Assembly (NCBI GenBank): GCA_017444385.1
Contig: JAFSWQ010000013.1
Location: 127,009 to 191,008 of the forward strand
Reading direction: 5' to 3'
DNA from: Clostridia bacterium
GTDB lineage: Bacteria; Bacillota; Clostridia; Christensenellales; CAG-1252
DNA length: 64,000 bases
Under the pieces are notes generated by a model, which saw nothing but the letters and a program-made list of their open reading frames with translations, searched no databases and was not told where the DNA came from. Positions 20,700-53,381 of the stretch are shown piece by piece. Made by a program: the position numbers and the translations under genes. Numbering within the stretch: position 1 is the stretch's first letter; each line of letters opens with the position of its first letter.

Positions 20700-23600
20700 A
20701 TGACTAAAAAGCATTTGAACGTTTTATTTATTTGCTTGATATGCTTGACGCTCGTATTCGCCGTCACCTATCTCGCCGCTTGTAAGAAAAACGTTTCCGT
20801 CGATATCATTCTTAACGACGTTGACGAAACTTACAGCGGGGAAGCCGTGACCTTTACGGGTAACACCTCGGACGGAAAGTATTTCTTCGATTCTTCCGCT
20901 CTCGACGGCTCGTTCAGCGTTGCGTACTTCGATAAGAACGGCGATCCCGTCGACGAATGCGTTTACGCGGGCGAATATACCGCGCAAGTCACTTTCGCCG
21001 CAAAAGGCTATAACACCGTCACCGCTTCGTGTAAAATCACCATACACAAGAAGAAGCCCGAAGTCAAGAGATGGCCTACCGTCAAAAACGACGAAAACGG
21101 CGAGCCTTACACCGTCACTTTCGGCGAAAAGCTCGATAACGAAATGTTAGAGCCCACCATTGCCGAAAACGTGGTGTTCGTGGTCGGCGTAGACAATAAA
21201 GCCGTTAGAGGTACGTTCTCTTGGGCGGATACCGCGGTGAGCGTCGCTACCGAAAAGTACGACGTCATATTCACTCCGCGCGGCTCGGCGACCGATCCTT
21301 CATCGGATTACAACAACTATACTACGGTGAGTATGAAAAAGGACACCGACGACTGTTTGAGAGTCAGAGTGCTTCCCGCTACCCCCGAATTGATAGAAGC
21401 CCCCAATATGCCCACCTTGAAGAGCGGCGACAGTTTGCAAAACGCCAAACTGACCTCTTACACTTTCGGCGTTTATAAGGACGCGGAAAGAAAGAACTAT
21501 ACCACCGTCAAGGGTACTCTTAATTGGGGTTATCTCACCGAAGAGGGCGGCTACGTTCTTTACAACGGCACGAGCGTCGCTTGGCCGGGCGTTACCGTAA
21601 AGGACGCGGCTAACTATATCGCAATCTTTATACCCAACGACAAAGATAACTACAAATCTTTCGTGTCCATTCCTCTCACCTTGAACGTGCTTCCCACCGA
21701 TCCTACGTTCAATACGAGTTTCGAGATACCCGCCGCAGACACGATTTCCTATGGTAAACCTTTGAAAGAAAGCGCGCTTCGCGGTCTTCTCGGCGTAGGG
21801 AAAGGCAGATCCGATCAAGTTTACGGTACTTTCGTTTGGGAAGACCCCGAAGAGGTCCCCGAAGTAAGCGGCTCCTTCAACGCTTTATTCATTCCCGACG
21901 ATACCGTCGAATATAGTTCCAACGTGGTCGTTAAGATCAAGGTAGACGTGACTGACGCCGAATTGCGCGTACAGCTTCCTTCCGCGTCCGCAGTCGATTA
22001 CGGCGACTCTCTCGAACATAGTATCATAGACAACGACACGTTAGGCGCGGGCGTATTCTATCTCTATTACGACCGCGACGTCCAAGCGTACGAAACCATC
22101 AAGGTTTCGGGTTATTTCGTTTGGGAATCCCCCGACCTTCTGCCCGAAGACGGTGAAAAACTTTCCACCATCGACACTTACGCGTGCGACGCGTTGTTCG
22201 TGCTTGACGATACTTCCATCGCGTATCGCTTCAACGAAGAGGACTTCAAAGTTAAGATTCCCGTCAAAGTCAAGAAAGCCGCTTTAGTGGATTTCCCCGA
22301 CTTCGATCCCATCGAACACGTAGTGTTCGGCACTCAACTTAAAGACGTAGCCCTTCCCGCATACACCGCGAAAGCCTACACCACCGACGAATTCGGCAAT
22401 CCCACCGCGGACGGCGAAGACGTTCCCGGCTTGCTTTCTTGGGTGGACGGCGATATCTATCCCGGCCTCGACGAGAACGGCGACAATAAGTATCTCGCGG
22501 TATTCACGCCAAAGTCCCCCGACTTCTCTCAATATCAAAGCTACAACGTAGAGATAATCGTTAGAGTGGATCCCGCCAATATCGACGCGGATAATTCTAT
22601 CTATCCCGTTGTGAGATCCCGCGTTGAAGCGGGTTCCGACCTCGAAGACGACAACATCGACGCGACGGAAGCCAAGATGTACATAAGAGGTCTTATAGAC
22701 GAAAACGGCGAGCATATCGCCGTCAGCGGTACTTTCGTTTGGACGGCGCAAGGTCCCGTTACCCCCGATAGACAAAAGTATTCGGTAAGATTTATCCCCG
22801 ATAATCTCAACCTCGTCAACACGTTCGACTTCGAGCTTTCGGTATCCATCGTTTCCGAAAGTTCCTGCTTCGAATTCACCTATAACGAAAGCGAAATGAC
22901 CGCCGTCATCACTTCCTTGGTATCTCATACCGACTGTATCGGCGGACACGTCAATTTAAGAATATCCGAGACCGTCAAGAAGGACGGCGAGGTTTATACC
23001 GTAGTCGGTATAGGCGACAACGCCTTCGCTTATCAACGCGTGATACAAACCATCGAATTGCCTTCCACCGTTACTTACATAGGCAACGGCGCGTTCCAGG
23101 GTTGCGATAACCTCTACGAAATAACGATACCCGAAGGCGTTACCTACATAGGCGCGTCCGCATTCCAAGGCTGTACGGCTTTGAAGAGCGTAGACAATCT
23201 TAGCGGCGTTATCGAACTCGTGGGCGACTTCGCGTTTGCCAACTGCTTGCTGTTAGAGGAACTTTCCCTTCCCAATTCGGTTTCCTATTTGGGTTACGGC
23301 GCGTTCGCTAACTGCGGCTCGTTGAAGGATCTTTCCATCGGCAACGGCAATATCAAGTACTACGTAAGAGACGGCGTAGTCCTCGAAGTAGGCGAAGACG
23401 GCAACGATATACTTCATACCTACCTTTGCACCAATTCTATATCCAGTTTCAGAATTCCTTCGTCGGTCACCGTTATCGCGCCTTATGCGTTCGCTTATAA
23501 CGACAACGTATTGCAAGAAGTCATAAGCGACACCGTTATCACGGTAGGCGACAGGGCGTTCCAAAACAGCAGCCTTAAATATTTGTATATCCTAAACGAC

Positions 23601-26600: not shown

Positions 26601-29600
26601 ATGCCTAACCTCAGGAAGATATCCATCGCTCAATCGGTCTATTCGATAGGCGACGGCGCGTTCTTCCATTGTCCCAAACTCACCGAGATCTATTTTGCGG
26701 GGAACGTTGCCGAGTTCGGCGTGAACGTAGTCCGCAATTCTTCCCCCGAACTCAAAGTTTACGGTCCTTCGAGAGGAACCATTTACGATGAATTCGGTAA
26801 ACAAACCTATAACTACGTTAAATACAACACGGTCAGCGATCCCGAGTGCTTCGAGTACACTTACAACGAGCAAGAGGATTACTATACGATAATCGGGCTT
26901 AAATCTCACTACTGCGCTTTAGGCCACGTCAGTATCGTATTGCCCGCCTACTACAAAGGCTCGCCCGTCAAGGTAATATCCGCCTCCGCATTCAACGACG
27001 AGGAAGAGATCTACTCGTTGAAGATTTCCTCGACCATCGCGAAGATCTATCCCGGCGCGTTCGCGGGTTGCTCTAAACTTAACGCGATATCGGTTGACGA
27101 CGCGAACGAGTACTACACCTTCGTGGACGGCGTTTTGACCGATAAGAAGACTAAATCCATATTGTACATTTGCTTGGCGAATACGGTTTCTTACGATATT
27201 CCCGAGAGCATTAAGGTAATCAAGAAGGGCGCGTTCGACGGCTCGGTGGTACAAAACCTCGGTCTTAACGCGGTCGTTCAAACCATCGAATCGGGCGCTT
27301 TGAGCGGCGCGAAGAACTTGAAGAGCATTGCGGGACTCTCGCATAACACGAGCTTCTACTTCGACGGCAGAGCCTTGTACGGCAAGAAAGCCGACTCGGT
27401 TTCCACCTTGTTGCTCTACATCTTCAATTCGTCCATGCCTTCTTATACCGTACCCGCTTCCGTCGACTACGTAGCCGAAGGCGCGTTCGAGAACGCTTTG
27501 AACTTGCGTCAAATCACCTTCTTGGCGGACGCCGAGTTCGCGGATAACGTCTTCGTGGGCGTTTCCGACGAGTTGACAGTGTACGGCAATTCGAGTTGCT
27601 ACAACGTGCAGTACACCTGTATAAGAGAGAACGTTCTCTATCATCGCACGCTTACCGACGATTCCTTCGACGTGGTACCCACCGAAGACGGTACTTTGCA
27701 GGTCAACGGCTTCGCAGTTACCGCGACGATAACCGAAAGCGTGGTTTACCTGCCCGCTTACATTAACGACGTATTGGTCACCAATATCGCCGCTAACGCG
27801 TTCACGGGTTACGTGGAAGGGTTGGTGGGTATGGTGCTTCCCGATAGTATCCTCGTCATTGGCGAAAGAGCCTTCTACGCTACCAATATGAGCAGTATCT
27901 CGGTAGGCGCGGGCGTCGCCGTACTCGGCAACGAGGCGTTTGAAAGCGTTTCGTTGAGAGAGATATTCTTCAGAGGCGATATCTCGCTCTATCAAGGATT
28001 CCTCGCCGATCACACCACCGAGGAAAATCAAAAGGTCGAGGTCTACTATTCTTCCGAGTATTCCGACCTCGCCGCTTACTTCACCGACGAGTATCTCGCT
28101 TCGGTCGCTCCTTTCGTCAAGGTGAGAGACGTTTCCGCATACACCGATGATATGTTGAGAGCGACCTGCTTCGAGTTCGTTCTCGAAGGCGGCGTTTATA
28201 AGATAGCGGGATTGAAGACTCACGCTTGTTCCTTCAACCACGCCGATCTCGTCATCCCCGACTTCTACTACGTGCAAAACGCGGACGGCGACTTCGTCTT
28301 GCAAGAAGACGGCTACGCTAAACAAAGACTTACCGAGATAGCCGACGGCGCGTTCGCTCATAATAAAGATATCTATCGTCTAACCTTGCCCGCGTCCATT
28401 TCGGTCATCGGTACGGGCGCGATTTCCGACTGCGAGAACCTCACCGAGATCATTCCCGCCGAAGGTTCGGTATTCGTATTCGATAGATTGTATTCCACTT
28501 TGAGAGTGAGGGATTATTCCGAACTCTATTCGGAAGGCGCGGAATTCGATACGCTGACTCTCGTTGCCGAATTGGATTATAAGGTCGTCGAATTCGAACG
28601 CGTTATCAACGAAAACGCGATAGAAACGATAGGTTTACGCTTACCTCGCGATATCTTCAAAGGACTATCCGCCGGTAACCATACCTTGACGATGTACGAC
28701 GCTACGGGTAGAAGCATAGGCGTATTCGTCGTCAATACGATTAGGAATACCGTACTTTACAACGATTATAACGAAGCGATAGAGTTCTACGACAACTTCG
28801 CTATCCTCACCCATTCGTACGCGCAATTCGACTTCCGCGCTATTAAGAAAGTCGTGTTAAGCGCGAAGGTCGACTTCGAGACCACCGATAAGGGCTTCAA
28901 GATCTCCGCCGCGCTACTCGGCGCCGTGAAGAAAGGTTCGCATTCGCTCATCGCCGCTTACGATCTTAACGGCGAAGAGGGCGAGCTTGCTCTTACCTTG
29001 AATTACAAGCAAGACGAGTGGTATCTGTTAGGCGACGAAGACGAACAGGTCGTCACCTATAAGGAAGGCGTTTTGTATAAATTCATAAAGAAAGCGAGCG
29101 TTTGGGCGGACGAGCAAATAAGCGTTCTCGATAGCCTCGTGGTCTACGTTTCGGTCAACCAAGACAACAGCTTCGAAATACCCGACACCGTTACCAAGGT
29201 AGAGGACGGCGCGTTCTACGGCGTCAAGGCTTTGACCGACGTCACGATAGGCGAAAAGGTCGCCGAGATAGGCGCGAACGTCTTTGCTAAATCCGTCAAT
29301 ATCACGGCGTTCTACGTCCACGAAAACAACGAATACTTCTTCACGGATAAGTTTAACGCGCTCTACCGTTACAATACGGGCAAAGAAACCGCGACCTTCA
29401 TCGCTTATCCCCCCGCGAGAAGCGGTCAAAACCACTGGTTAGGCGTCGACGTACCCGTTACCGAAATTGCGGGCGGCGCGTACGTATCCGCGAAGTGGTT
29501 GACGAGCGTCTACGTAGAGAGTTACGTCGAGGCGGTGGAAGACAAGGGCATAACCCTCTTCGAAGGCGCGAACAGTTTGAACGCCGAATACGGTCTCAAC

Positions 29601-32600
29601 GTTTATATGCCTATCCGCGGCGATAATACCCCGGACGGCTTCGTCAAGAGCGAAACCGCTCTCGAAACCTACGTTTCCGCGCTTAAAGCGGAGGGCACGA
29701 ACGTCAACCTCATCTTACATACGCATAAAGAGTGCTTCATTTACGACGATACGGGTAGAACAATCGTCGGCGTTAAGGATCACGACTGTAACTGCGACCA
29801 TTCCAATTTGGTGATACCCATCTTCGCTTACGGCAAAGAGGTCACCGCTTTGGGCGAATACGCGTTCAGAGGGGACGCGGAATTGAATACCGTCGAATTC
29901 CTCAATAAGAATTCCAGCTTCGAATTGAAGCCCGCGGCGTTTGCGGATTGCGACAACCTCGCTTCCGTCAAGATACCCGCTTCCACCGGTTACGTATTCG
30001 ACTCGGGTATGATCTTCAAGGACGATACGCTCTACGCGGTATTGTCTTCGGTAGATTACCTCGAAATAAGACTTGAAGACACTTTTGCGACTATCGCCGT
30101 TAACTACGACGTCGACAACGGCGCGGGCGATATCGAAACCGACGAAGAGCCCGAACTCGACAACGACGAGTCAAGCGATACGGTAGGCGTCGCCATCGAC
30201 ACCATTTACAGCCAAGGCAAAGACGTCAAGATCGCTTACGTCTACAACGTCAAGAGCGTCGAGCAAGGCGCGTTCTTCGGTAACGACAACGTTAAGATCA
30301 TAGGGCTCTCCGCGAGCGTTTCCTCTATTGGCGACGGCGCGTTCAGCTACTGTACTTCCTTGAAGAGCCTTGAAATATCCAACGAAAATCTCAACTACTA
30401 CTTCGAGGACGGCGTGCTGCTCAACTACACGAAGTCCATTCTTCACACCGTGCTTTACAACTACGCCGTCGATATGACGGATAGCCTCTACGGCGTGGAT
30501 AACGGCAGCAGCGTGAGAACCGAGAACGTGGTCGAGATAAGACCTCGCGCAATGGAAGGCGTAAATATCGCGCGTATCAAATTGCCTTTGAGCCTCGACA
30601 TAATAGGCGACAGGGCGTTCGCGGAAATGCCTTACCTCACTCATATCTACTTCGAATCCGAAGTTAAGGATATCTCGTTAGACGCGGATATCTTAGGTCT
30701 TACCTACTTCACCGAAGAAGAGCAAGCCGCTTTCGGCGAGAGAAAGATAACCGCTTTCGGTCCTTGCGGCAACGATCCCGAGAGCAAGTCCTCTTTAGAG
30801 GATAAATACAGTATTATACATAGATACTTTATCAATAAATACTTCGGCGAATTGCCCGAAGAAAGCGTAATGCTCGAAGACTTCGAGTGGTACACCTCGA
30901 ATATCTCGCTTTCCGCTGTTTACAAACCCTGGACGAGTTACACCAAGTTCGACTACGACCTTGTGAAAGCGAAGGACGAGAACGACGAGAACACCGCGTA
31001 CATCGTGGGTTACAACGTACCCAAGGGCGCGTCCACTCTCGACGCAGGCTCGGACGAGATAGTTTTGCCTATGTACACCGAAGTCGCCGACGAAGAGGGC
31101 AACGTCGAGAAGTATCGTATAGTCGGTATCAAAGAAAACGCTTTGGGCTACCATACCGAAATCATGTCGATGACGATCTTATACAACGTCGTCACCGTGG
31201 AAGACGGATTTATGAAGGGTAGCTCCAACGTCGAAGAACTTATCGTAATGGATAACGATACCTACGTCGTAAGAAGAGGCGACTCCATAAACGGCGTAAT
31301 GTTCACCAAGGATTACAAGAAGTTGGTGGTTTACCTGCCCACTTCCGACCTCGGCACCTACGAAATACCTCAAGGCGTAGTTGAAGTCGCGAGGGCTGCG
31401 TTCGCCTTCTCGAAGAACCTCACCACCGTAGTAATACCCAGAACGGTAGAATACATCGGCTCGGCGGCGTTCTCGACCTGCTTGAACCTCACCAACTTCA
31501 CCTCTAACTCGCCTTACTATTCGTTCAGTTATTCCGCGTTGTACGGCAATAACGGAACTCTCTTGCATACTTATCTCGCTTCCGGTAGAGGTACTTCGGG
31601 TATGAACGGCGTTTACGTCATTCCCGAAATAGTCACCGAGATCAACGAATACGCGTTCGAGGGTAACAAGTGGTTGTCTTCTATTAGAATACCCGAATAT
31701 CCCACCGACGACGGTCTTACTTCGGTCAACTATATCGGCAAGAACGCGTTCGCCAATATGAATTCTCTCAAAGAGATATTCTTCGAGGGCTACACCGACG
31801 TCAATAAGGCGAAAGAGATAAGCCCCGACGACGTTCTTTCCTTCGATCTCGCTTCGGGCGAGGGCGAAGAAGCCATCAATATCAAGGTGGAAATAAGAGA
31901 CGCGAGAACGAGTTTCGCGTATGCGGAAGACTTCGATATCGGCGAATTGATATTCACCGTAATTTCCGACGAGGGCGAAACGCAGGTATTCGACAAGCAA
32001 TTCGGCGACGATAACTACTACGAATACACCACCGTCGGCACGATGAACGTTTTAGGCGACGACGGCGCGATGACTATGAAAGAAGTCGATTACAACAAGT
32101 GGATAGAGGGCGAGTATCCCGTATTCGTCACCTTGGTCTACGACGGCGCGACCTACGAATTCACCTATAACGTGAAAGTGGAACCCATCACCGACGTATT
32201 CGGCGGCACCGTAGTCAACAAAGTTATAACCGTTTACTCTCCCGCCGACTCTCTCTTGTATCATCAAGTTTACGACAAGGCGAACGTCAACTACGTCGCT
32301 TATACGCCTAAGACCGCTTTGGAATACTCGGTATCTTCGGGTGGCGCGATATCCAGCTACGTTATCGTCGAAGGCTTCTCCAAGGACGCCGCGAGCGTAC
32401 TCGGCAAAGAAGACTATCGTAACGGCGAAATGACGACGGTAGGCGATATCGCAACCTTGATTATCCCTTCGTATATCGAGAATAAGAAGGTCACCGAGAT
32501 CGCTAAAAACGCGTTCTATTCCACCGACGAAGCGATAGAAAAGGCGCGCGCTATCATACCCGACGAGACCGAATTCAATCTCGAAACGGTAGAATTGTAC

Positions 32601-35600
32601 GTATCCGCTTTGAATAACGTAGAGCTTTACGCTCTCGACGCGAGAAAGGCGATCCTTAACTCCGCTATCGTGAACTTCACCTCTCTCGACAACCTCGTCA
32701 CCATCGGCGAAGGCGCGTTCGAGAACGCAGACAGGCTGGAAAATATCACGTTGAGCAAGACCGTCCTCGACATAGGCGCGGGCGCGTTCACTTACGCTTA
32801 CGCCGTAAAGACCGTAAATATCGACGCTAACAACAATTCGTATATGATGGAAGGCGCGGTACTCTACGAAAGCAAGGGCAAGGTATTGCACACCGCATTC
32901 AATTCCCTCTTCGAAGAATTCTTCTTCGAGACCGAACTTCCCGTCGCTACCATCAAGGCGAGAGCGTTCGAGGGTGTGGACGCTTTGAGTTATCTCACCG
33001 TACCCGTCACCATTTCGGGCGCGGAAGACGCCATCGGCGAAAGAGCGTTCAAGAATATGACCAACCTCGAAGAGATCTATATAACCAAGAACTTCGCTCT
33101 CCCCGATAACGCGTTCGACGGTTGTATGGTGGGCTTCGTGATCTACTCGCCTAAGGGCGACGCATTGAAGGCTTACTGCAACAAGCATAAGTATCTGTAC
33201 GTCGAATGGAATCCCAAGGAATGCTTCGAGATAGAGTACGTCAACTCCACGAGCGTAGCCATCGTAGGTCTTTCCGGCCACGCGGATTGCGACAGCTCGC
33301 ACACCGACATAGTTATTCCTATGTACGTCGACAGTTATAAGGTCACGCAAATAGGTAACGGCAAGCCGGTATTCTCCACTATGACCGAATCGGTCAACTC
33401 GGTAACCATTCCCACCAGCGTCAAGACAATAAAGGCTAACGCGTTTAACGGTTGCATAGGTCTTACCTATATGTATATACCTTACAGCGTCGAAGAGATA
33501 GGCGACAACGCGTTCACCGCTTGTACGTCTATGACCGAGATGGTATTCATCGACGACGTTGCGACCTTTGGCAGCAACGTATTCAACAGCGTAAGCGCGA
33601 ACCTCATCGTTTACTACGCGCCCACCCGCACCAAAGGCTCGGGCAAGGTAGTCAAGTATTGCGCGGAAGCGGGCATTTCCGTAAACGCCGGCACGCCTTC
33701 CACTTGCTTCAACGTAAGCGAAGTTATAATGGACGGCATAACGGGTTACAGAATAGACTCGTTGAAGACCCACAAGTGCGGCTTCACCCATAAGACCGTA
33801 GTAGTACCCGACTATATCAAAGGTAAGAAGGTATTGAGATTTGCGGACGGCGCGTTCAAGAACGTCAACGAACTTACGTCCATAAGCGTTCCCAAGTACG
33901 TGCAAAACGTCGGTATCGGCACCTTCAACGGTTGTAAGAATCTCGCCCAAGTCACCGTAGACGGCGGAAACGAGAATATCGTATTCGAGAGCGGCGCGTT
34001 CTATACCAAGGATAGAAAGACCTTGCTTCTCTGCGTATCTTCGGTAGCGGGTGAAGAAATAGTCTTCCTCGAATCCACTTATAGAGTCGCTTCGGGCGCG
34101 TTCGAAGGCGCGACCGTCGCTTCCATAACTTTGAACGCTTCCTTGTTCAGTATCGACAACGGCGCGTTCGCAAGTTGTTCTAACCTCACCACCATAAACG
34201 TACCCGACGGCGCGACCTACTTCGCTTCGGTTGACGGCGTGCTTTACAACTCGGCTAAATCCCGCCTCGTCGTATATCCTTCGGGTAGAACGGCGGTAAG
34301 CTTCACCGTACCCGACGGCGTTATCGTCATCGCTCCTTACGCCTTCGCGGGCGCGAAGAACCTTGAAAGCGTCACCATCGACGCGGAGATCAAGACGATA
34401 AGCTCCAACGCGTTCGCAGATTGTTCGTCCTTGTACGATATCCAAGTGCTCGGCGACCTGCAAGCCATCGGCTCGGACGCTTTCGTCGGCACGAAAGAAG
34501 GTCTCCTCGTAACGAGTATCTACAACGGCAACGCTTTGGAATACTACTGTATCGAGAACGATCACAACTTCCGCAAGTCCAATCCTCTCTCGTACTTCAA
34601 GACCAGCACCGAGAATATGCCCGTGGGCGAAGTCGCCATCACGGGCTGGAACGACGTCGCGAGTATGAACGACGTTACCGACGTAGTGATTCCTATGTAC
34701 GTCGACGGGCTCAAAGTGACCGTCATCGCGGCTAACGCGTTTAGATACAACCACGTTATCAGAACGCTCGTCGTACCCGATACCGTCACGAGCATCGGCG
34801 TCGCTTCATTCGCGGGGGCGGAAAACCTGCGCAGCGTACTCTTCGGTAAGAACGTAGCCGACATACACGTCAACGCGTTCAATCAATGTACCGAATTGAA
34901 CAGTATGTACTTCATGAGCGAGAGCGTCACCATCTATAACAACGCGTTCAAGGGTATGGATATCCCGAACGCCGAAGTTTACGTCGACGCTTTGTCTCGC
35001 GGTTACGAGAGAGTCGCGGATATTCCCGTTTACTCTTCCTTGCGTTCGTTAGGCTTCACCGTAGACGATATCAAGTATTCGTCCTGCTTCACCTATTCGG
35101 CGGTAAACGGCGACGGTCTCATCGTTACGGGGCTCAAAGATCACGTCTGCCCCGTCAACCACAACAACGTGGAAATACCCGACGTCATAGTATCTTCCAA
35201 CGGTTCCATCCGTTACGTAATCGCTATCCAACAAAACGCTTTCGCGGATAACGAGAGCCTCGTTCGTATCGTAGTACCCGAAGGTATCACCGATATTGGC
35301 GACGGCGCGTTCTCGGGTTGCACCAACCTGCACGAAATAGTGCTTGAAAACAATAAGTTCTACACGTTTGAAAACGGCGCGCTTTACAACAGCAAGAAGA
35401 CGGTGCTTCACACTTACCTCGCGTCCAACAGCGCGTTGACGCTCACCATTCCTTCCACCGTTTTGAAACTCAACGACAGCGCCTTCAAGAACGCGGTCAA
35501 CCTCACCAGCATAACCTTCAATAAGGACGTGCAAGTGGGCGAACACGTGTTCGACGGCTTGTCCCGTAACGTTATCATCTTCGGACCCGAAAAGGACGGC

Positions 35601-38600
35601 GATTATTACACCAACCTCTACGTTGCGTTCGTGGAAGAATATCTCGATTACACTTCTAAAGTCACCGACGGAGACAAAGTCACCGAGTACGTTCTTGCGA
35701 TAACCAATACCAAGAGCGTTTACACTTCCAAGACCTTCCAAGATCCCAAGAGCGATTACAACGACTTCAAGTACGTCATTCAAGACGACGACACTTTGAA
35801 GATAATCGCTTACACGCCCGCCGAGAAGCCCAAGAAGATAATCATACCTCAATATATCATCGACCGTAAGGTCACCGCTATCGCTACCGAAGCGTTCAAA
35901 GGTCAGGATAGAGCGGATACCATCATACTTCCCGACGGTCTCGTCACCATAGAAAGTATGGCGTTCGCGGATTGCAGTTCTCTCGAGAGAATAGTATTCC
36001 CGTCGAGCGTCCAAAACATCGGCGACGACGCGTTCAACGGCTGTACCGGTCTTTACGAAGCGTACTTCGTTTCGGATATCGCTTTGCTCGGCGAGAACGT
36101 ATTCGCCAACACCTACGCTGACGACGGCTACACGATATCCGTCTTCGGAACTAAGTACAGTTACCTCGAAAGCTGCTTCGACGCGTCCCTATACAACAAC
36201 GCGACCTCGTTCAACTGCTTCGAGTACGAATTCCTCACCAACGATTCGGTCATCATAACCGGTCTCAAAGATCATAACTGCAACGGCAACCACGATAACG
36301 TGATCATACCCAATACGATAGGCGGCGCGAGAGTGGAAAAGCTTGCGAGCGGTTTGTTGAGAAACAACTCCACCGTTACCTCGATCAAGCTTCCCGAATA
36401 CCTCGTCGCCATCAACGAACACGCGTTCGACGGTTGCAACAACCTGCAATCCATCTACATTCCTTCGAGCGTCACTTCGATAGGCAGCTACGCGTTCTAC
36501 AACTGCGTCGCTCTCGAAGGCGTAGTCCTTCCCAATATCACCGAGATAGGCAAGTACGCCTTCGCGAATTGTCACACCTTGACGACCTTCATCCTTCCCG
36601 AGACCGTCAAGTCTCTGGTATCGGCGGAAGGCTTGTTCAAGAACTGTTACAACCTGACTCAAATCAGATTGCCTAAGACCTTGAAAGAATTGCCCGACAG
36701 CTTCTTCGAGAACACCACTTCGTTGACCTCTATCCTCTACTTCAACGTAGTACACGTCAACGGCTTACCTCCCGAAATAAGAAGTTTGGGCGCTAAGTGC
36801 TTCGCCAATTCCAAGTATCCCGAAGTGGGTAGTATGAGCCTTAACTCTCTGCCTTTGACCTCTTTGGGCGACAAGTGCTTCGCGGATACCGGATTACCCG
36901 ATTTCGATATCTCGGATATCGTTTCCTTGGGTAGAGGCGTATTCAGTAACTGTCACAGCTTGCAACTCTCGGGCGAAAACGAAGAGTACCTCTACGACGA
37001 GACCGATCATATCTTGTACGAGAAAGTCAAGACTCCTCCCGTCGCGGCTTCCATGGAAGAAGCGCAATCCCTCGTTCAAGAGATCCCCGCTTACGATTCC
37101 ATGATGCCCGAGACCACTCTCGTTCAAGTGAACGGAAGCAACGTCTATATGGTATCTCTCGGCGGCACCGACCTCTACAAGCATAGAGACGGCGACAGCG
37201 TTTATAAAGAGAGATTCAATATCGCGATGGTGACCTCTTCGGCGAGAGTTACGTTCATCAGCGGCACTTACGTATCCGAAGCGATGCCCGTGGATCACGT
37301 CATCGTCACGAACAAGACGGATTACAACAACTACGCGTTCTATATCAATCCCGATAGACTCAACTCTCTGCCCGCGGGTATCTTCACCATGAAGGTATCT
37401 TACGATTACACCTGCGAAGTGGATAGAGACGACGGTTGGACGTGGTTGTTAGGCCGCGATAAACCCACTTATAGCGAATTCGTCAATATCGACGAAAGCA
37501 AGACCATCGTCAAGGGCGAGATAACTTCCGCTCGTATCACCTACGTTCCCGGTTCCGCCGACGCTGAAGAGGGCGGCGGCGAAGGCGGCGAAGGCGGCGA
37601 AGGCGGCGGCGAGGGCGAAAGCGAAGCCGAAACCCCGCAAACCGAGGAATACATCTTTACCAAGAAGGAGGGCGAACCCAGATTCGAGGAATACTTCTCG
37701 ATCAACGACAAGACGGGTTACGTCACCATGATAAAGACTCTCGAAGACCTCGAAATCACGGGTATCAGCGAATTCACGCTTACCTTCTCGACCACGGCGG
37801 GCGGCCCTTACGAAGTAGTGTTCAAATACGATTCCGACGTAAGAGTTATTACCGTAAAAGTGGCGATACACACCGTACCCGCTTCCACGAGCGCGGAAAC
37901 CATCAATCCTTCGAGTTCCTTCAACTTCTACCGCGACGGCAACGACTACTACTACAACAATATAAAAGTGGATATGAAGGACGGCGTTGTTTACAACAAC
38001 GAACTCTACAACGCCATCAAGTTACTCAACGAGGAAGATATTTACGTAGTGGACGGCGTGAGCGCGATCAGATCCTTCGCGTTCGAAGGCTGTTCGGAAA
38101 TCAGCAGATTGGTCGTTTCTTCGAGCATAAAGACCATCGAAGAGGGCGCGTTCATCAACGTCACCAATTTGAGCGAGGTCGGTATCTCGGGCAATAACAA
38201 GTTCTACATACTCAATCTCGACCACAACGATCCTCAATACGCTTACGCGGGCGGCGCGATCTTGCAACGCAACGTAGACGCGAACGGCGAACCCGTCAAC
38301 GACGTTAACGGCAAACCCGCTTATACGCTCGTTTCCTATCTTGCGACCAACACCGCGGAAGAGTTCACCGTACCCACCTCTATCGTCAACTACGATACGG
38401 GCGTCGTGACCCCCATCCATATCACCTCGATAGGCAACTACGCGTTCGCGTACAACGAAGTGATCAAGGTGGTCAACCTCACCGACGTCGAACGTATAGG
38501 CGATTACGCGTTCGCTAACTGTAAGAATATCAAATACGTCAACGTTCCTTCGGGCTGCTACTACATCGGCGAACACGCTTTCGACGGTTGCTCGCTCACG

Positions 38601-41600
38601 AGTATCTACTTCGAAGACGGTATCGCGGGCGGCTTGAAAGCCGAGGATATCGAAAGACAAGTCCTCGTATCTCTAATCGCGGGTTCCTCGTATAGAAAGA
38701 TCGAGAATCCCACCGCCGGCATCCTCGCCGAATACGAAGTCACCGCGACTTACAACGACCTCGTTCTCAAAGACTCTGCGGGACAAATCCAAACTTACAG
38801 CGTCGACGAACAAGTCAAGTTCAGAACGGGCAACTTCAACTTATTGAAGTACAAAGTCACCGTCTACGACACCGAATCCGTCAACGACAGGATAAAGGTA
38901 AGATACTATTCGTACGCTTCTAACGACTTCACCGAAGGAGCCGTATCCCTGAACTTCTTCGCGCAGTACAACTCGGACGGCTCTATCACGATAACTTCGG
39001 ACGGCGTTACCGTAGCGACGTTAGGTGAGAACGACGCGGCCTACACCAATCCCAACTACGAAGAGATGAACGTCAAAGTCGAGATCGTAGACGAGGGCGG
39101 CGCGACCTACTACCTGCTCGTTTGCTACAACGACGACAAGTCCTATACTCTCACCGAGGACAACGGACACACTTCCTTCTCGGGCGGTATAGGCGCGGAA
39201 GCGTTCGGCGACAACGTGAGCGTAATGATCTATTCGTCCTTGAAAGACGGCGAGTTCAACGTACTCAGCAACTACGCCGACAAGTATATTCTCAACGAAG
39301 AGAACGTACCCATCACCTATAACACCGTTTCGCCCATAACCTTGTTCTCTTACGAGATAATCAACGGTAATCAAATCCGTATCAAAGGTTTGAAGAAGAG
39401 CGGTATTAAAGACCTCGTCATTCCTTCCACCGTGGACGGAATGCCCGTCACGAGCATTCTCTCGTTGGCGTTCAGCGGCAACACCGACCTCGTCAACGTG
39501 ACCATACCTTCCACCGTCACTTCGATAGGCAACAACGCGTTCTACGGTTGTACCTCTTTAAGACAGGTCTACGTCGAAGGCATAGTCACCGACCTCGGTC
39601 TAAATATCTTCAAGGGTTGCGATTACAACAACCTCGAAGTTTACGGTATCATCTCGACCGAACTCGACAATTACTGTCAACAAGAAGGCATATCCTTCAA
39701 CGTCGGCACGTATTGGGGTTGCTTCAAGATCTACGTCAACGGCGATAACGAAGCGACCATCGCGGGGCTCGTCGATCACCATTGCAACACTTCGCACCGA
39801 TATATCACCATTCCTTCCGAAATCAACGGAATGAGAGTGGTCGGCATACACCGCGACGCGTTCAAGGGTAGCGACGTGGTTTCCGTCAATATCTCGGTCA
39901 AGATACCCAAGTCGGGCGGCGTGGACGTAGGAACCTACCTCATCGACGAGGGCGCGTTCGCTAACTGCGCTTCCTTGAAGTCCATCTACTTGCTCGACGA
40001 CGGTTATAAAGTCGAATTCGCGGAAGGCGCGATCGACAACTACGGCGCGGGACTTACCGTCTACGCTACCGGCGACGGCAACCTCGTCAACACCGACGCG
40101 GAACTATTAAGAGACGCTTATATCTCTGCCATCACGATAAGCGACGTATTCGTCGTTAGCGACGTGACGGGCGGCTATAAAGTCATCGGTCTCACATCGG
40201 AAGGCTTGGAAATGGGCAAGATACGTATGCCCGACACCATCAAGGGTAAGAACGTAGTGGCGATAGGCAACCTCGCGTTCATGGGCGACGTCAACCTTAC
40301 CACTATGATACTCGGCAAGTACGTGACGAGCATAGGCGAACACGCGTTCGAAGAGTGTACCAACCTCACCTACGTATTTATGCCCGATTCGCTCACCGAG
40401 ATAAAGAGAAGCGCGTTTGCGGATTGTACGTCCTTGCGCAGTATAATGCTCGGCGAAAACGTCGAGTCGGTAGGCGACTACGCGTTCAGCGGCTGTTCGG
40501 CTTTGAAAGAATTCCGTATATCCAACCCCGACTGTAAGCTCGGCGAAAAGATATTCGACGGAATCAAGGGCAATATCGACTTCGTTGAAGTTCCCTCTTC
40601 CGCAAGCAAGCTTTACACCTACTTCCGCAACAATTACAGCACCAAAGCGAAGTATATAGAGAACCTCTCCACCGCAGTCAAGTACAGAGAATGCTTCACT
40701 TACGAAGTGGTACTCGACGACGACACCTACGGCGACTATATCATCATCACCGGTTTGAAGACCCACAGCGGTTGCGCGGTCGGTAACCACAAGAACGTTA
40801 TCATACCCGCGTACATCGGCGGACTTCCCGTCAAGATGATCCAAAGAAGAGCGTTCGCGGGTAACACCGTGATACAAAGCGTTATCGCCGAAGTGGGCGA
40901 AGGTCTTATCCTCTACGAAGGCGTATTCCAGAACTGCGTGAATTTGGGTAGCGCCGACCTCGGCAAAGTGCAACAAATCTATATGTACGCGTTCAAGGGT
41001 TGCGGCAACCTTGCCAGCGTATCCTTGTCGCTTATGAGCAATACCGTCCTCGGTAAAGCCGACGACGCGGACGATCAACGTATCGCCGAAGTCTTCGAAG
41101 GTTGCACCAACCTCAAAGAGATAGTCATCGACGACTCTTACGTTAGCGCGTCGCGCGTGCGTTATTATTCGAAGAACGGCGCGGTCTACGACAAGAAGAA
41201 CACCTTACTACTTTGCTACGACCTCTCCACCGATACCTTCGCCCCCGACAACGCGGTGGCTATCGCTAACGGCGCGTTCACGGGTTGCGGCAAGATAAGA
41301 ACTCTCGTTCTTCCCGCTTCGGTCACCGTATTTAATACGTCGGTACTCTTCGATAACGAGGGCAACCTCATACTCACAAATCTCTCTAAACTGTACGTCA
41401 ACGCCGACAGAATGCAAATAATCGGCGCGGATAAACTCGCTAACGTGGAAGTTTACTATCCCATCGACTGCGAGCCCGTCACCGACAGTCCTTTGGTAAG
41501 CACCTTCGAATACATACCTCAACGTTACTTCGACTTCAATTTGAGAGTTGAAGACCTTACCGACGGCTACGTTTACGTTCTCAACGGCGTGAATTACGTC

Positions 41601-44600
41601 TACTCTCAAGCGGTTTCCGCTTGGGTGGAAAGCACGGGTAATTACAGCGTGCTTTTGGCTGACGCGTACTTCAAGAACAACTATAACGTATTTACCAAAC
41701 TCGGCGAAGACAACGTTTACTACGTTTACGCTAACGGCGAATTTACCTCGGTGTCCATCACCTCGGATATGATTTCCGAAACTCAAAAGATGTACACCAT
41801 CTATCCTATCGCCAATATCAACAAGCTCATCGAAGTCAACGTCGTCAACGGTTTGGTCTACTACAAGAGCGACCTGCTCTCGTCGAGAAATCAATACAAC
41901 GACGTTTACGTCAAGTATTCCGCGATAATAAGAAACGGCGACCGCGACCTCGTATCCGTGGTTTACGTCAACAGGGGCAACGGTCTCGCTTACTCCTTCG
42001 ACGAATCCACCGCAAGCTTCGTCAAGGTGAACGGCGACGCGTATCTCTTGCATAACGCGCTCTTGCTCGAATCGGATTCCTTCCAATACTATATCCGCAC
42101 CGAAGACAACGCTCTCATCAGCGCGAACGCGGAAGGATTGGGACTTATCTATGACGTTTACGCGAACGGCGAATACTACTATCTCAACGAGAATAACGAC
42201 TTCGTACTCGCCACCGTCATAGCCGACGTGGTTTACGATAACGGCGAGGCTGTGTCCGTAATGGGCGTACCCGTAAGACCTCAAGATCTCTACTTGCGTA
42301 AGTTCGCTCACGTCAAGAGCGGCGTAGAACGCAACGTTTACGCTTACGTCAAACTCTCGGATAACTCGGTATATCTCTACGAGGCGAAAGGCGCGGCAAC
42401 CTTGCTCACCGAAGAATACGACTTGTACGAGATAAAGAGCGTACTCACCGGTCAAACGCAAGGCGCGATAGTTTCGGTCAAGAACGTCAACGATACCGAT
42501 TGGAACAAGTCGGTTTACAGCGACGACGTCAAGATACCCGACTTCGCGTATATCAACGGCGTAAGCTATCCCGTCGTCGAGATAGGTTTGAGAGGTTTCA
42601 AAGACAGTAAGGCGACCAAGATAACCGTCAGCGGCAATATCGCCACGGTAGGCGACCACGCGTTCGAGAATTCTTCCAAGCTACAAACCGTTGAATTCAA
42701 GAACAGCGTCACCACTTTGGGCGACAACGTATTCGCGGGTTGCAACGCTTTGAAGACCGTCAACATCGGCGAGAACATCAACAGCATTGACGGCAATATG
42801 TTTACCGAAAGAGCGTACGTCCTCGACAACGACGGCAATATCAACGCGGCGACCGACCTTACCGTTATCGTAGCGGTGAACAACCAAACCTTCGAGAACG
42901 ACTCTTCGGATTATATGATCCGCAGCAAAGACGGCAGCGTGCTTTACGCTTACTACGGTATCGGCGGCGAGAACGGCGCGGATAAGGGTACGGTCATCAT
43001 ACCCGAAGGCGTGAGCGTCATCAAGACGGGCGCGTTCCGTTACGCTACCTTCAAGCAAGGCACCTCGACCAACAACATTACGACCATCATTCTTCCCACC
43101 ACTCTCCGCGAAGTCGAGATAGGCGCGTTCGACAATATGCCCGCGCTTACCAAGGTTATCTTCCGCAGCGCGGTTAAGGCTCTCGAGTACGACGATGAGG
43201 AAGAAGAATCGGTATTCAAGACCACCGCCGAAAACTTCACCGTCTACGGCATCGAAGACAGCCTCGTCGAAGAGTATTGCGACGATCACGATTACGCGTT
43301 CCGCGCGTACGTATCCGAAGATACCTTCGTCGCCGAAGCGTTCAAGAAGAACGGCAACTGGTACGCGAGAATACTTTCGGTCAATCCCGAAAAGATCAAG
43401 CGTAACCTCTTCCTGCCCGACAAACTCACCGTTACCTACGACAAGGACGGCGTTTATACCACCGAAGAATTGAGAGTCCTCGAAATCTCTTCCGCGGTAT
43501 TCTACGGCTTGTCGAGTATTGAAAGAGTCATCATTCCCGCTACGCTCACCGATATAGGCAACAACGCTTTCGCGGAATTGCGCAACTTGAAAGAGGTCAT
43601 CGTATTAGGCGAAAACGAACTCTCGATCAAGAACACCGCCTTCGCGTACAGCGAAAAGCTTACCGGCTTCTACGTCGAGGAATACAAGACCATCGTATTC
43701 GGTAAGAACGTCTTCAAAGGCTCGAATTCCAACCTCGTCGTTTACTGCGTATCCGACGCCGCCGACAAGATGAGAAACTTGGGCGAAGACGTGGTTACGA
43801 GCGTGGTCGACAAGGCTTCCGCGTTCACGGTATCCAACATCAACGATAACGTGACCTCTATCGTAGGCTTCCAGAACGGCGCGATAATGGCGGGTTCGGT
43901 CGTCGACGGCGATATGGCGATACCCACCTACATAGGCGGCGCGAAGGTCGTCAAGATTGCCATCACCGGCACCGAAAACGGACTTAACAAACAAATAGAC
44001 TCTATATCCATTCCTTCTTCGGTCACCGAGATAGCGGCGAACAGCTTCAAGAATTCCAAGATCAACGAGATAGTCATTCCCGCTTCGGTCACCAAGATAG
44101 GCGATAACGCCTTCTTCACCAACTACCTCACCGCCGAAATTAAGAACGAGTTGAACGTCTACCTCGAAAGAGATATCGAGCTTGGCGAACACGCGTTTGC
44201 GGCTCAAAGCACGATAGGCGGCAAGGTAACGAAGGGAACCGTCAACTTCTACGTACCCAAGAACGTACCCAACGTTTCCGCGTACGCCGAGAGCTTGAAG
44301 GCGGAAGGCTATACAGTAAATATGAACTACTATACCGAGACCTCTTGCTTCGAATATTCGGTAGTCAACGGTCTCGAAGTATCCATCGACGGACTCACCG
44401 AGGAAGGCAAGTGGCTTACCAAGATAGTCGTACCCAGATATATCGACGGTAAGAAAGTCACCGCGATAGGCGACGGCGCGTTCGCCCATAACGTCGCGCT
44501 CTTGAAATTGAGCTTGCCCGAAGATCTCACCGCGATAGGCGACTACGTATTCGTAGGAACCTTTATGGACGTCAACGAAGAAGTCATCTCGGCTTCCGTC

Positions 44601-52448: not shown

Positions 52449-52461
52449 TAGAGGTGAGATT

Positions 52462-53379: not shown

Positions 53380-53381
53380 TT

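What the first reader, a model, noticed from the sequence alone, without database searches (positions are those of the whole stretch)
20700..51161. 30.5-kb single ORF: 10,153-aa lipobox-anchored BspA-type LRR giant
Seen: the open frame is uninterrupted for 30,462 nt, almost half the window. It has its own promoter and SD and a lipoprotein signal (..VTYLAAC). It has no C-terminal anchor. The body is built almost entirely of the ~23-25-aa repeat IP.SV..IG..AF..C..L..I, grouped into cassettes. Established: BspA-like LRR proteins are surface adhesins or host-interaction factors in oral and gut anaerobes. Proteins above 10,000 aa are rare in bacteria. Inference: this is an extremely long N-terminally tethered solenoid fibre or a multivalent binding array. 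Its position directly upstream of a pilus operon with its own giant adhesin-like pilin suggests a dedicated cell-cell or host attachment island.
Basis: partly seen in the sequence, partly recalled or inferred. Interest (0 to 1): 0.8.

Follow-up and report, generated by a model that had tools for sequence, protein, structure and literature searches.

The report
Giant lipid-anchored leucine-rich-repeat surface protein
An uncultured gut Clostridia bacterium (Christensenellales-like) really does carry a single 30.5-kb gene for a 10,153-residue, membrane-tethered surface protein built from about 28 different BspA-type leucine-rich-repeat modules on an Ig-like stalk; it is an extreme but recognisable member of a common, uncharacterised class of bacterial binding proteins.

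Summary
The ORF (20700..51161, +, 10,153 aa) is real. Two other metagenome assemblies also call a 10,153-aa gene. Collinear orthologues occur in two related genomes, and the C-terminal third has dN/dS of about 0.16. No DNA repeat exceeds 74 nt or 88% identity, so assembly collapse is not a concern.

Architecture: signal peptide with lipobox (Cys28); about seven Ig-like domains (aa 29-720); then about 28 discrete BspA-type LRR (LRR_5) cassettes. Each cassette has its own N-cap hairpin. Low-confidence linkers join them, and at least five unique non-LRR inserts lie between them. "Almost entirely LRR" is therefore overstated, and a continuous solenoid is unlikely.

Paralogous cassettes are only 22-34% identical, whereas orthologous ones are 48-68% identical. 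The array is old and fixed in order, not recently amplified.

Fifteen N-caps carry a co-varying Cys...His-x-Cys-x-His motif. I read this as a possible zinc or disulfide clamp. It was found only in this lineage.

LRR_5 arrays of 2,000-8,000 aa are common in public data, many with lipoboxes, and Clostridia proteins of 10,000-30,000 aa with LRRs have been noted in print. The link to the adjacent type IV pilus operon is only conserved adjacency; each unit has its own promoter-like site.

Verdict: new member of a known kind, of moderate interest.

The parts
20441..20462 (+). Terminator-like hairpin ending the upstream ACP transcription unit. It marks the 5' boundary of the giant gene's own unit.
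   Evidence: 9-bp stem with 7 GC pairs, followed by a T-rich tail
20605..20633 (+). Promoter-like site TTGACT-17-TATTAT (10 of 12 consensus positions)
   Evidence: This is a consensus match only; function is inferred.
20689..20694 (+). Shine-Dalgarno sequence AAGGAG, 5 nt upstream of the ATG
   Evidence: sequence printed
20700..51161 (+). Giant ORF of 10,153 aa plus stop codon
   Evidence: The same 10,153-aa gene is called on ENA contigs ERZ28019071:k141_1040372 and ERZ27256812:k141_1591585.
20700..20783 (+). Signal peptide with lipobox (aa 1-28, ...TYLAAC). Cys28 is the predicted lipidated residue.
   Evidence: A lipobox Cys is also present in the L009 orthologue (LFAGC) and in P0016 (TMSAC).
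20784..22859 (+). Stalk of about seven tandem Ig-like beta-sandwich repeats (aa 29-720). Repeat motif: YG..L...GtF.W....y..F.P.d.NY.
   Evidence: AF2 model is all-beta, with pLDDT 70-92 for about aa 128-428. Foldseek matches tandem Ig, cadherin and S-layer chains. Profile hits include proteins that carry MBG_2 or Big_3_5 domains.
22860..51158 (+). Array of about 28 BspA-type LRR (LRR_5) cassettes (aa 721-10153). Each cassette has an N-cap hairpin, 3-10 LRR units and a tail. Unique inserts lie between some cassettes.
35079..35597 (+). Example cassette (aa 4794-4966) with a Cys/His N-cap, modelled at pLDDT 84-98
   Evidence: Top PDB matches are 4gt6, 4h09, 4cp6, 4fs7, 6mlx and 4oju.
28452..29186 (+). 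Non-LRR insert (aa 2585-2829). It looks beta-rich from the sequence and has no family match.
31779..32390 (+). Non-LRR insert (aa 3694-3897)
36966..38054 (+). Non-LRR insert region (aa 5423-5785), which contains the acidic Gly/Glu linker
37548..37637 (+). Low-complexity linker PGSADAEEGGGEGGEGGEGGGEGESEAETP (aa 5617-5646), partly encoded by a 9-nt tandem repeat (37575-37608). It sits near the middle of the protein and may act as a hinge.
38607..39335 (+). Non-LRR insert (aa 5970-6212)
41304..42440 (+). Non-LRR insert (aa 6869-7247). It is conserved in the L010 orthologue (pN 0.17-0.24).
51168..51194 (+). 11-bp GC-rich hairpin directly after the stop codon. It has no T-tail on the + strand.
51207..51235 (+). 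Promoter-like site TTGACA-17-TAAAAT (11 of 12 consensus positions) for the downstream pilC operon. This is context, not part of the giant gene.
51273..63676 (+). Neighbouring type IV pilus gene set. In order: PilC/GspF platform, PilM-like, two unknown genes (411 and 284 aa), a 2,254-aa protein with a weak GspK-like N-terminus, and two prepilins (141 and 207 aa, GFTL[LI]E motif).
   Evidence: The same gene order occurs in L010.

Best explanation
The gene encodes one very long cell-surface lipoprotein of an uncultured gut Clostridia bacterium. Its nearest DnaB relatives (59-61% identity) are Christensenellaceae and Clostridia MAGs.

Proposed mechanism, step by step:
1. The N-terminal signal peptide directs Sec export (inferred).
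2. Lgt and LspA process the lipobox, so that Cys28 is lipidated and holds the protein in the outer leaflet of the cytoplasmic membrane (inferred from the motif and its conservation).
3. About seven Ig-like beta-sandwich domains form a stalk. At roughly 4 nm per domain this could carry the rest of the protein through and beyond the cell wall (the fold is shown by modelling; the spacer role is inferred).
4. The remaining 9,400 residues or so form a flexible chain of about 28 separately capped BspA-type LRR modules, joined by linkers and interrupted by several unique non-LRR domains (shown by HMMs, PDB matches and AF2).
5. Cassettes within the protein are only about 22-34% identical to each other. 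The same cassette in an orthologue is 48-68% identical. Even the positions that vary between cassettes stay 46-71% identical between orthologues whose synonymous sites are nearly saturated. The array is therefore old and fixed in order, and each module is kept under its own constraint.
6. The most likely function is multivalent, probably multi-specific, binding of host, microbial or particle surfaces (inferred by analogy with BspA, PcpA, LrrG/HupY and TpLRR-type proteins).
For: The gene is real:
- The ORF is intact.
- Two further assemblies call the same 10,153-aa gene and match the window at 99.99% over all the sequence fetched (up to 20 kb; it covers the first 9.5 kb of the gene).
- No internal DNA repeat is longer than 74 nt or more than 88% identical. 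Paralogous protein segments are at most 47% identical.
- A syntenic orthologue lies downstream of DnaB in L009. At least 2,376 aa are visible, collinear with the giant protein at 48.5% identity, and it has a lipobox.
- An orthologue lies upstream of PilC in L010. 3,299 aa are visible, collinear at 67.8% identity with only 49 gap columns.
- dN/dS is about 0.16 over 3,272 codons. pN is well below pS in every 150-codon window.

Lipoprotein: the only hydrophobic segment is aa 4-25, followed by LAAC. The lipobox is conserved in L009 and in P0016.

Stalk: AF2 gives an all-beta model. Foldseek matches tandem Ig, cadherin and S-layer chains with probability about 0.97-1.0 for most of the best matches. 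The stalk profile finds proteins that carry MBG_2 or Big_3_5 domains.

LRR modules:
- LRR_5 is found in all ten slices.
- A two-cassette segment matches PDB sequences 4fs7, 4gt6, 4h09, 6mlx and 4cp6, with E-values down to 3e-31.
- AF2 gives pLDDT 84-98 and 77-92 for two cassettes, separated by a 60-aa stretch with pLDDT below 50.
- Foldseek top hits are all BspA-type LRR structures.
- NCBIfam gives partial hits to the adhesin HupY/LrrG and to Gli349.

Module-specific constraint: between orthologues, scaffold positions are 83-100% identical and paralogue-variable positions are 46-71% identical.
Against: - There is no expression, lipidation, localisation or ligand evidence of any kind.
- The giant protein's own lipobox fails the strict PROSITE pattern at position -4 (Tyr).
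- Whether the organism has one membrane or two cannot be told from the window, so the 'stalk spans the wall' step is inference.
- Only about 5,700 of the 10,153 residues could be compared with orthologues. The middle third has no orthologue evidence.
- The inserts, roughly 15% or more of the protein, have no assignable fold or family. Part of the function may lie there rather than in the LRRs.
- dS of 1.6 is close to saturation, so the dN/dS value is approximate.
Confidence: 0.65

Rival explanations
1. It is a passive surface coat, spacer or barrier rather than an adhesin. A long, flexible brush of beta-rich modules would shield the cell from phage, predators or host factors, or would set the distance between cells. 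No cassette would have a specific ligand.
For: The protein is very long, has a single anchor, and contains low-confidence linkers and a Gly/Glu hinge. The stalk model resembles S-layer chains such as Sap and EA1. No ligand is known for any close relative.
Against: Cassette-specific, non-scaffold LRR positions remain 46-71% identical between orthologues although synonymous sites are near saturation. A pure spacer would not need that. All characterised BspA-type LRR proteins are binding proteins (established knowledge; family matches).
Confidence: 0.15
2. It is secreted or shed, not lipid-anchored. The N-terminus would work as an ordinary signal peptide, or the protein would be cut off the cell after export. 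It would then act at a distance, for example by bridging cells or coating substrates.
For: The strict PROSITE lipobox pattern is not met at position -4. No lgt or lspA gene is visible in the window. Very long tethered proteins are often released by proteolysis.
Against: L-A-A-C fits the common lipobox [LVI][ASTVI][GAS]C. A Cys at the equivalent position is conserved in L009 (LFAGC) and in the distant P0016 (TMSAC). 36 of the 150 top LRR_5 arrays also have lipobox-like N-termini.
Confidence: 0.1
3. It is a functional partner of the adjacent type IV pilus, i.e. an 'attachment island'. It would be co-regulated with the pilus or displayed together with it.
For: The giant gene lies directly upstream of pilC, and this adjacency is conserved in L010. 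A 33-40-nt intergenic element occurs both upstream of the giant gene's promoter and around the pilin genes.
Against: There are separate promoter-like sites with a hairpin between the units. The giant protein has no prepilin signal. The adjacency is shown in only one close relative. The shared element is absent from L009 and L010.
Confidence: 0.08
4. It is an assembly artefact, or a fused or decaying set of smaller LRR genes.
For: The sequence comes from short-read metagenome assemblies, and repeat proteins are prone to mis-assembly.
Against: Repeats are too diverged to collapse: at most 74 nt and at most 88% identity. Three assemblies agree, counting the window. Orthologues in two other lineages are collinear with almost no indels. 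Purifying selection holds in every window tested.
Confidence: 0.02

Closest known systems
BspA-type / TpLRR-type LRR surface proteins (Pfam LRR_5, PF13306), e.g. Tannerella forsythia BspA, Treponema pallidum TpLRR (PDB 6mlx), pneumococcal PcpA (4cp6), and the gut-bacterial structures 4gt6, 4h09 and 4fs7
   Same: Same repeat family, well above the Pfam threshold. Same fold by sequence and by model. Predicted to be extracellular. Each cassette resembles one complete small LRR_5 domain with an N-cap hairpin and a C-terminal tail.
   Different: It is 10-40 times longer, with about 28 such domains fused in one chain. It has a lipobox and an Ig-like stalk in place of the choline-binding, T9SS or other anchors of the characterised members. 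Many N-caps carry a Cys...His-x-Cys-x-His motif. That motif was absent from the other 149 top LRR_5 arrays and from 32 small relatives. No function has been tested.
Multi-thousand-residue LRR_5 arrays in public genomes and metagenomes (uncharacterised), e.g. P0020 (7,983 aa), P0016 (7,944 aa), P0140 (7,622 aa), P0007 (7,528 aa)
   Same: Very long chains of LRR_5 cassettes. 345,363 representative proteins match at E<=1e-3, and the top 150 are 1,741-7,983 aa long. 36 of those 150 have lipobox-like N-termini. P0016 shares the full architecture: lipobox, Ig-like stalk and Cys/His-capped cassettes. It is collinear with the giant protein at 24.6% identity over the first 1,700 aa.
   Different: The window protein is longer than any of the 150 listed. 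The library did not return the protein itself or its orthologues, so it may lack the very longest proteins. Apart from P0016 and P0151, the other arrays have different caps, anchors (for example the C-terminal TM segment in P0140) and accessory domains.
'Large' (>=10,000 aa) and 'giant' (>=30,000 aa) bacterial proteins, as surveyed by West-Roberts et al. 2023 (bioRxiv 10.1101/2023.11.21.568195)
   Same: It falls in their 'large' class. The paper already notes Clostridia proteins of 10,000-30,000 aa from mammalian gut metagenomes that carry surface-antigen domains including leucine-rich repeats, and it proposes adhesion roles.
   Different: It is unlike the Omnitrophota giants, which have many transmembrane regions and SecA-DEAD domains. 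This protein has one hydrophobic segment and no enzymatic domain. The lipobox/Ig-stalk/capped-cassette architecture and the positional conservation of cassettes are not described there.
Giant tandem-repeat adhesins of the Bap / LapA / SiiE / Ebh type
   Same: A very long, single-anchor surface protein made of repeated beta-rich modules, with a presumed adhesion role.
   Different: From my own knowledge, those proteins are built from Ig-like or similar repeats that are often nearly identical, reflecting recent amplification. They are exported by T1SS or anchored by sortase. Here the modules are LRR solenoids. Paralogues are only 22-34% identical, with no sign of concerted evolution. The anchor is an N-terminal lipobox.

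Membership tests
BspA-type LRR (Pfam LRR_5, PF13306) | Match to the LRR_5 model above the gathering score (27.7 bits) | tested here: met
   129-334 bits in each of ten 1,000-aa slices
BspA-type LRR (Pfam LRR_5, PF13306) | Repeat unit of about 22-24 aa with the consensus IP.sV..IG..AF..C..L..i | tested here: met
   128-146 units; the commonest spacings are 23, 22 and 24 aa; I5, A9, F10 and L16 are 81-98% conserved
BspA-type LRR (Pfam LRR_5, PF13306) | Fold like the solved LRR_5 structures | tested here: met
   the model is confident (pLDDT up to 98); Foldseek top hits are 4gt6 (E 7e-12), 4h09, 4cp6, 4fs7, 6mlx and 4oju (TM-score 0.66 normalised to the target)
BspA-type LRR (Pfam LRR_5, PF13306) | Adhesive or ligand-binding function at the cell surface | not testable with these tools
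   Requires binding assays, localisation experiments or mutants
Bacterial lipoprotein (Lgt/LspA substrate) | N-terminal basic n-region, hydrophobic h-region and lipobox [LVI][ASTVI][GAS]C within about the first 35 residues | tested here: met
   MTKKH..., hydrophobic aa 4-25, L-A-A-C28
Bacterial lipoprotein (Lgt/LspA substrate) | Strict PROSITE PS51257-style pattern, which also constrains position -4 | tested here: not met
   Tyr at -4 is outside the allowed set. From my reading of the sequences, the L009 orthologue's VLFAGC fits the pattern.
Bacterial lipoprotein (Lgt/LspA substrate) | Conservation of the lipobox Cys in homologues | tested here: met
   L009 (LFAGC) and P0016 (TMSAC)
Bacterial lipoprotein (Lgt/LspA substrate) | Actual lipidation, and presence of lgt and lspA in the genome | not testable with these tools
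   These genes are not in the window. Mass spectrometry or the complete genome is needed.
Sortase-anchored (LPXTG) wall proteins | C-terminal LPXTG-like motif followed by a hydrophobic segment and a basic tail | tested here: not met
   only two internal LPxxx strings (aa 1674 and 5384); no C-terminal hydrophobic segment
Type IV pilins / pseudopilins | Class III signal peptide G|F(T/S)L(I/L)E (TIGR02532 / N_methyl) | tested here: not met
   no hit for the giant protein's N-terminus. The two neighbouring small genes (62499-62924 and 63053-63676) do meet it.
Omnitrophota-type giant proteins (West-Roberts et al. 2023) | Length >=30,000 aa, numerous transmembrane regions, divergent SecA-DEAD domain | tested here: not met
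   10,153 aa, one hydrophobic segment, no such Pfam domain. It does meet their 'large' threshold of >=10,000 aa.
Recently amplified tandem-repeat adhesins (Bap/LapA-like) | Long, near-identical tandem repeats at the DNA level | tested here: not met
   repeats are at most 74 nt and 60-88% identical. TRF finds only short repeats with 9-, 18- and 24-nt periods.

The most novel reading that the evidence does not exclude
The protein may be a fixed, ancient repertoire of about 28 non-interchangeable receptor modules on a single polypeptide. Each LRR cassette, and each unique insert, would have its own ligand specificity. That specificity would have been preserved position by position since before these genera or families diverged, with no concerted evolution. 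Most N-caps would be clamped by a lineage-specific Cys-His-Cys-His site, either structural zinc or a disulfide with flanking histidines. That would make it a single-gene 'adhesin library' rather than a repetitive fibre.
Probability: 0.3. Interest if true: 0.6.

Novelty: new member of a known kind. Interest (0 to 1): 0.4.

Why it matters
If it is expressed, this one gene takes up about 30 kb of what is probably a small gut-anaerobe genome. That implies strong selection for surface binding in a poorly known, uncultured Christensenellales-like lineage. Sample labels suggest ruminant or animal gut, but that is an inference from names only.

The useful result is not the size. It is that the modules are old, ordered and individually conserved. 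This makes the protein a natural test case for asking whether BspA-type LRR domains carry distinct specificities. The co-varying Cys/His N-cap is a concrete structural hypothesis that can be tested.

It also illustrates two practical points. Diverged-repeat giants can be assembled reliably from short reads. Homology tools that limit target length can miss such proteins entirely.

Tried and rejected
1. Assembly collapse or chimera: rejected.

2. Phase-variable inverton: an imperfect 22-nt inverted repeat (20538-20559 / 20633-20654) brackets the promoter-like site. However, 10.5% of dinucleotide shuffles of the intergenic region give an equally good repeat. The L009 upstream region shows only generic AT-rich palindromes. 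All fetched contigs have the same orientation. I treat it as chance.

3. Homologue searches:
- The word-index search with aa 1-770 found nothing.
- The two later searches returned only targets up to about 1.75 times the query length. That tool therefore cannot report giant relatives, and its silence is not evidence of uniqueness.
- The representative-library search returned neither the protein itself nor its orthologues. It cannot be used to claim that no LRR_5 protein of 10,000 aa or more exists.

4. Family assignment for the stalk and inserts: Pfam at E<=10, NCBIfam and a PDB sequence search gave nothing meaningful. The inserts are not homologous to each other.

5. The Cys/His N-cap motif elsewhere: absent from the other 149 top LRR_5 arrays and from 32 small relatives.

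6. Identifying the species: a GTDB-representative scan with DnaB found only relatives at 59-61% identity. The genome itself was not located.

7. Horizontal transfer: GC3 is 0.68, against 0.52-0.64 for the neighbours. This is not a convincing foreign signature, and housekeeping genes flank the gene.

8. Rfam scan of the window: no family reached its gathering score.

9. A first multi-cassette alignment (A1) was useless, because overlapping rows aligned by identity. It was replaced by non-overlapping cassettes (A4).
Full report
**Observation**

The window contains one ORF at 20700..51161 on the + strand. It starts with ATG, encodes 10,153 aa and has a single terminal stop. The nearest in-frame upstream stop is at 20679. 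With the local base composition, about 4.4% of random codons would be stops. An open frame of this length therefore cannot be chance; my arithmetic gives about 1e-198.

The long antisense ORFs listed inside the gene, up to 900 aa, lie wholly within it. I take them to be shadows of its strong codon bias.

**Is the ORF an artefact?**

The internal repeats are far too diverged to confuse an assembler.
- The longest DNA repeat families are 30-74 nt at 60-88% identity.
- TRF finds only three short tandem-repeat rows, with periods of 9, 18 and 24 nt.
- The best non-self protein segments are 27-34% identical over about 200 aa, with a maximum of 47%.

Exact look-ups of the neighbouring DnaB and ACP proteins found two ENA contigs on which a gene of exactly 10,153 aa is called: ERZ28019071:k141_1040372 (92 kb) and ERZ27256812:k141_1591585 (35 kb). 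Each differs from the window by one base over all the sequence fetched, which covers the first 9.5 kb of the gene.

Two more distant genomes carry collinear orthologues.
- L009 is an uncultured Christensenellaceae MAG whose DnaB is 59% identical. It has a syntenic ORF downstream of DnaB and ACPS that runs off the fetched locus after 2,376 aa. That stretch aligns end to end with aa 1-2367 at 48.5% identity.
- L010 is contig Ga0256405_10000803, whose PilC is 91% identical. It has an ORF that ends just before pilC. Its visible 3,299 aa align with aa 6854-10153 at 67.8% identity, with only 49 gap columns.

Over those 3,272 codons pN is 0.22 and pS is 0.665, giving dN/dS of about 0.16, and pN is well below pS in every 150-codon window. 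PilC gives 0.07. The gene is therefore translated and under purifying selection over its C-terminal third, and its dN is about 3.5 times that of PilC.

**Transcription unit**

- A strong terminator-like hairpin (20441-20462) follows the upstream ACP gene.
- A promoter-like site TTGACT-17-TATTAT lies at 20605-20633.
- An AAGGAG Shine-Dalgarno sequence precedes the ATG.
- After the stop codon there is an 11-bp hairpin (51168-51194), then an 11-of-12 promoter-like site (51207-51235) in front of pilC.

The gene thus looks monocistronic. This is an inference from consensus matches only.

**Architecture**

1. Signal peptide and lipobox (aa 1-28). The sequence is MTKKHLNVLFICLICLTLVFAVTYLAAC. The only hydrophobic segment of the whole protein is aa 4-25. 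The common lipobox L-A-A-C is present. There is no LPXTG motif followed by a TM segment anywhere. The strict PROSITE pattern fails at position -4 (Tyr). However, the orthologue in L009 (LFAGC) and the distant homologue P0016 (TMSAC) keep a lipobox Cys at the same place.

2. Ig-like stalk (aa 29-720). It consists of about seven repeats of about 95 aa with the motif YG..L...GtF.W....y..F.P.d.NY.
- It has no Pfam, NCBIfam or PDB sequence match.
- A profile built with L009 and P0016 finds 26 proteins, several of which carry MBG_2 or Big_3_5 domains.
- An AF2 model is all-beta, with pLDDT 70-92 for about aa 128-428.
- Foldseek matches chains of tandem Ig, cadherin and S-layer domains.

3. LRR cassette array (aa 721-10153).
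- Pfam LRR_5 is found in every 1,000-aa slice.
- My single-unit HMM finds 128-146 canonical units, mostly spaced 22-24 aa apart.
- About 28 cassettes begin with a recognisable N-cap 'head': F.Y....I.GL......vvIP.yI.G..V..I...AF.
- A two-cassette segment (aa 4794-5170) matches solved LRR_5 structures by sequence: 4fs7 (E 3e-31), 4gt6, 4h09, TpLRR 6mlx and PcpA 4cp6.
- Modelled with the window's own paralogues as the alignment, that segment gives two confident LRR modules (pLDDT 84-98 and 77-92). About 60 residues with pLDDT below 50 separate them.
- Foldseek returns the same BspA-type structures.

The body is therefore a chain of separately capped modules, not one continuous solenoid.

4. Non-LRR inserts.
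- The main ones are at about aa 2585-2829, 3694-3897, 5423-5785, 5970-6212 and 6869-7247.
- The 5423-5785 insert contains a Gly/Glu linker at aa 5617-5646.
- They look beta-rich from the sequence.
- They have no family match and are not homologous to one another.
- Beyond the stalk, stretches of at least 80 aa with no recognisable LRR unit or head add up to about 3,150 aa.

**Evolution of the array**

Paralogous cassettes are 22-34% identical. The same cassette in L009 is 48% identical and in L010 68% identical, with the order preserved. The array therefore predates the split of these lineages, and there is no concerted evolution.

Within LRR units, scaffold positions (I5, A9, F10, L16) are 83-100% identical between the window and L010. 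Positions that vary freely among paralogues still remain 46-71% identical, although synonymous sites are near saturation. Each module appears to be held under its own constraint.

**A lineage-specific N-cap motif**

In 15 of 22 heads scored, a Cys directly precedes the first strand (C-F-x-Y), and the hairpin ends in H-x(1-3)-C-x(2-4)-H. Six heads have neither feature, one has the Cys only, and none has H-C-H alone (Fisher p = 9e-5).

The state is the same in the orthologous cassettes of L009 and L010. P0016 has the motif too. It is absent from the other 149 top LRR_5 arrays and from 32 small relatives.

A four-ligand Cys2His2 site (structural zinc), or a disulfide flanked by histidines, is my inference. 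I could not inspect model coordinates.

**How unusual is it?**

A full HMMER scan of 1.84 billion representative proteins with aa 4176-5375 found 345,363 matches at E<=1e-3. The 150 best are LRR_5 arrays of 1,741-7,983 aa with 16-56 matched stretches. By a loose regular expression, 36 of them have lipobox-like N-termini.

P0016 (7,944 aa) shares the whole architecture and is collinear over the first 1,700 aa at 24.6% identity.

Neither the protein itself nor its orthologues were returned. That library, and the word-index tool, which only returned targets up to about 1.75 times the query length, cannot tell us how many LRR_5 proteins of 10,000 aa or more exist.

West-Roberts et al. (bioRxiv 10.1101/2023.11.21.568195) call proteins of 10,000 aa or more 'large' and those of 30,000 aa or more 'giant'. 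They already mention Clostridia proteins of 10,000-30,000 aa from mammalian gut metagenomes with leucine-rich repeats, and they suggest adhesion roles. A literature search found no description of this family in Christensenellales.

**Context**

Upstream lie housekeeping genes: a SpoU methylase, a PTS EIIC, PepF, DnaB, ACPS and ACP. The locus is therefore chromosomal. GC3 is only slightly above that of the neighbours.

Downstream is a type IV pilus gene set:
- PilC/GspF and a PilM-like protein.
- Two unknown genes.
- A 2,254-aa protein with a weak, sub-threshold GspK-like N-terminus.
- Two prepilins that score above the TIGR02532 cut-off.

The same order occurs in L010. This supports conserved adjacency in one close relative, not a functional link.

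**Mechanism proposed**

Sec export and lipidation at Cys28 tether the protein to the membrane (inferred). The Ig-like stalk, about seven domains, lifts the rest of the protein through and beyond the wall (fold modelled, role inferred). The roughly 9,400-aa chain of capped LRR modules and unique inserts then presents many different binding surfaces (structure supported, ligands unknown).

I give this 0.65. The rivals are:
- a non-specific coat or spacer, 0.15;
- a shed or secreted form, 0.10;
- a pilus-coupled role, 0.08;
- an artefact, 0.02.

**Verdict**

This is a new and very long member of a known, abundant but uncharacterised kind of protein. The positional conservation of diverged modules and the Cys/His N-cap are the points worth following up.

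Noticed in passing
window 20212-20244, 20319-20351, ~62975-63010, 63756-63788, 63873-63905 (all + strand): An intergenic element of about 40 nt, core CGGAAKAGAYGTTTCGACAAGCTCAACRTGACGA, occurs five times. Two copies lie between the ACP gene and the giant gene's promoter. One lies about 60 nt upstream of the 207-aa pilin gene. Two lie after that pilin gene. None is expected by chance. No Rfam family matches. The element is absent from the related loci L009 and L010. Its function is unknown; it could be a REP-like repeat or a shared regulatory or leader element.
   Followed up: partly
window 22860-51158; N-caps of the cassettes (e.g. aa 721, 1200, 1666, 2048, 2488, 3010, 4173, 4334, 4794, 5171, 6339, 6663, 8814, 9483): A co-varying Cys...His-x-Cys-x-His motif occurs in 15 of 22 cassette heads, in an almost all-or-none pattern (Fisher p = 9e-5). 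Its state is conserved in the orthologous cassettes. Elsewhere it was found only in the distant homologue P0016. It may be a structural zinc site or a disulfide clamp.
   Followed up: partly
window 20538-20559 / 20633-20654: An imperfect 22-nt inverted repeat brackets the giant gene's promoter-like site, in an inverton-like arrangement. About 10% of dinucleotide shuffles give an equally good repeat, and all fetched contigs share one orientation. It is probably chance.
   Followed up: yes
window 55581-62345 (+): A 2,254-aa protein in the pilus operon has no Pfam family. Its N-terminus (KGAILVYTLLTMMVIAIV...) is hydrophobic and lacks the pilin Glu5. It gives only a weak GspK-like (minor pseudopilin) hit, E = 0.005 and below the family cut-off. 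A 2,235-aa counterpart exists in L010. It may be a giant pilus-tip subunit.
   Followed up: partly
window 62499-62924 (+): A small prepilin gene of 141 aa (KKGFTLLE motif, above the TIGR02532 cut-off). It falls below the 150-aa cut of the first ORF list. It lies between the 2,254-aa gene and the 207-aa pilin gene.
   Followed up: yes
window 431-11508 (+): Seven consecutive + strand ORFs (406, 338, 321, 510, 842, 261 and 413 aa) have no Pfam family above threshold. The only hits are weak AAA_5 and DUF3810 matches in the 510-aa ORF. The region has a strong positive AT skew.
   Followed up: no
window 37575-37623: An in-frame 9-nt tandem repeat (GGCGGCGAA, 3.8 copies) encodes part of the Gly/Glu linker near the middle of the giant protein. 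It is the only simple-sequence tract of note in the gene. It could vary in length without breaking the frame.
   Followed up: no
window 24534-51053, minus strand: Many long antisense ORFs, up to 900 aa (32052-34754), lie inside the giant gene. They are probably shadows of its codon bias. They could mislead gene callers if the + strand ORF were split.
   Followed up: no
tools: The word-index homologue search returned only targets up to about 1.75 times the query length. The representative library did not return the 10,153-aa protein or its orthologues. Absence of giant relatives in these outputs is therefore not evidence that they are rare.
   Followed up: partly
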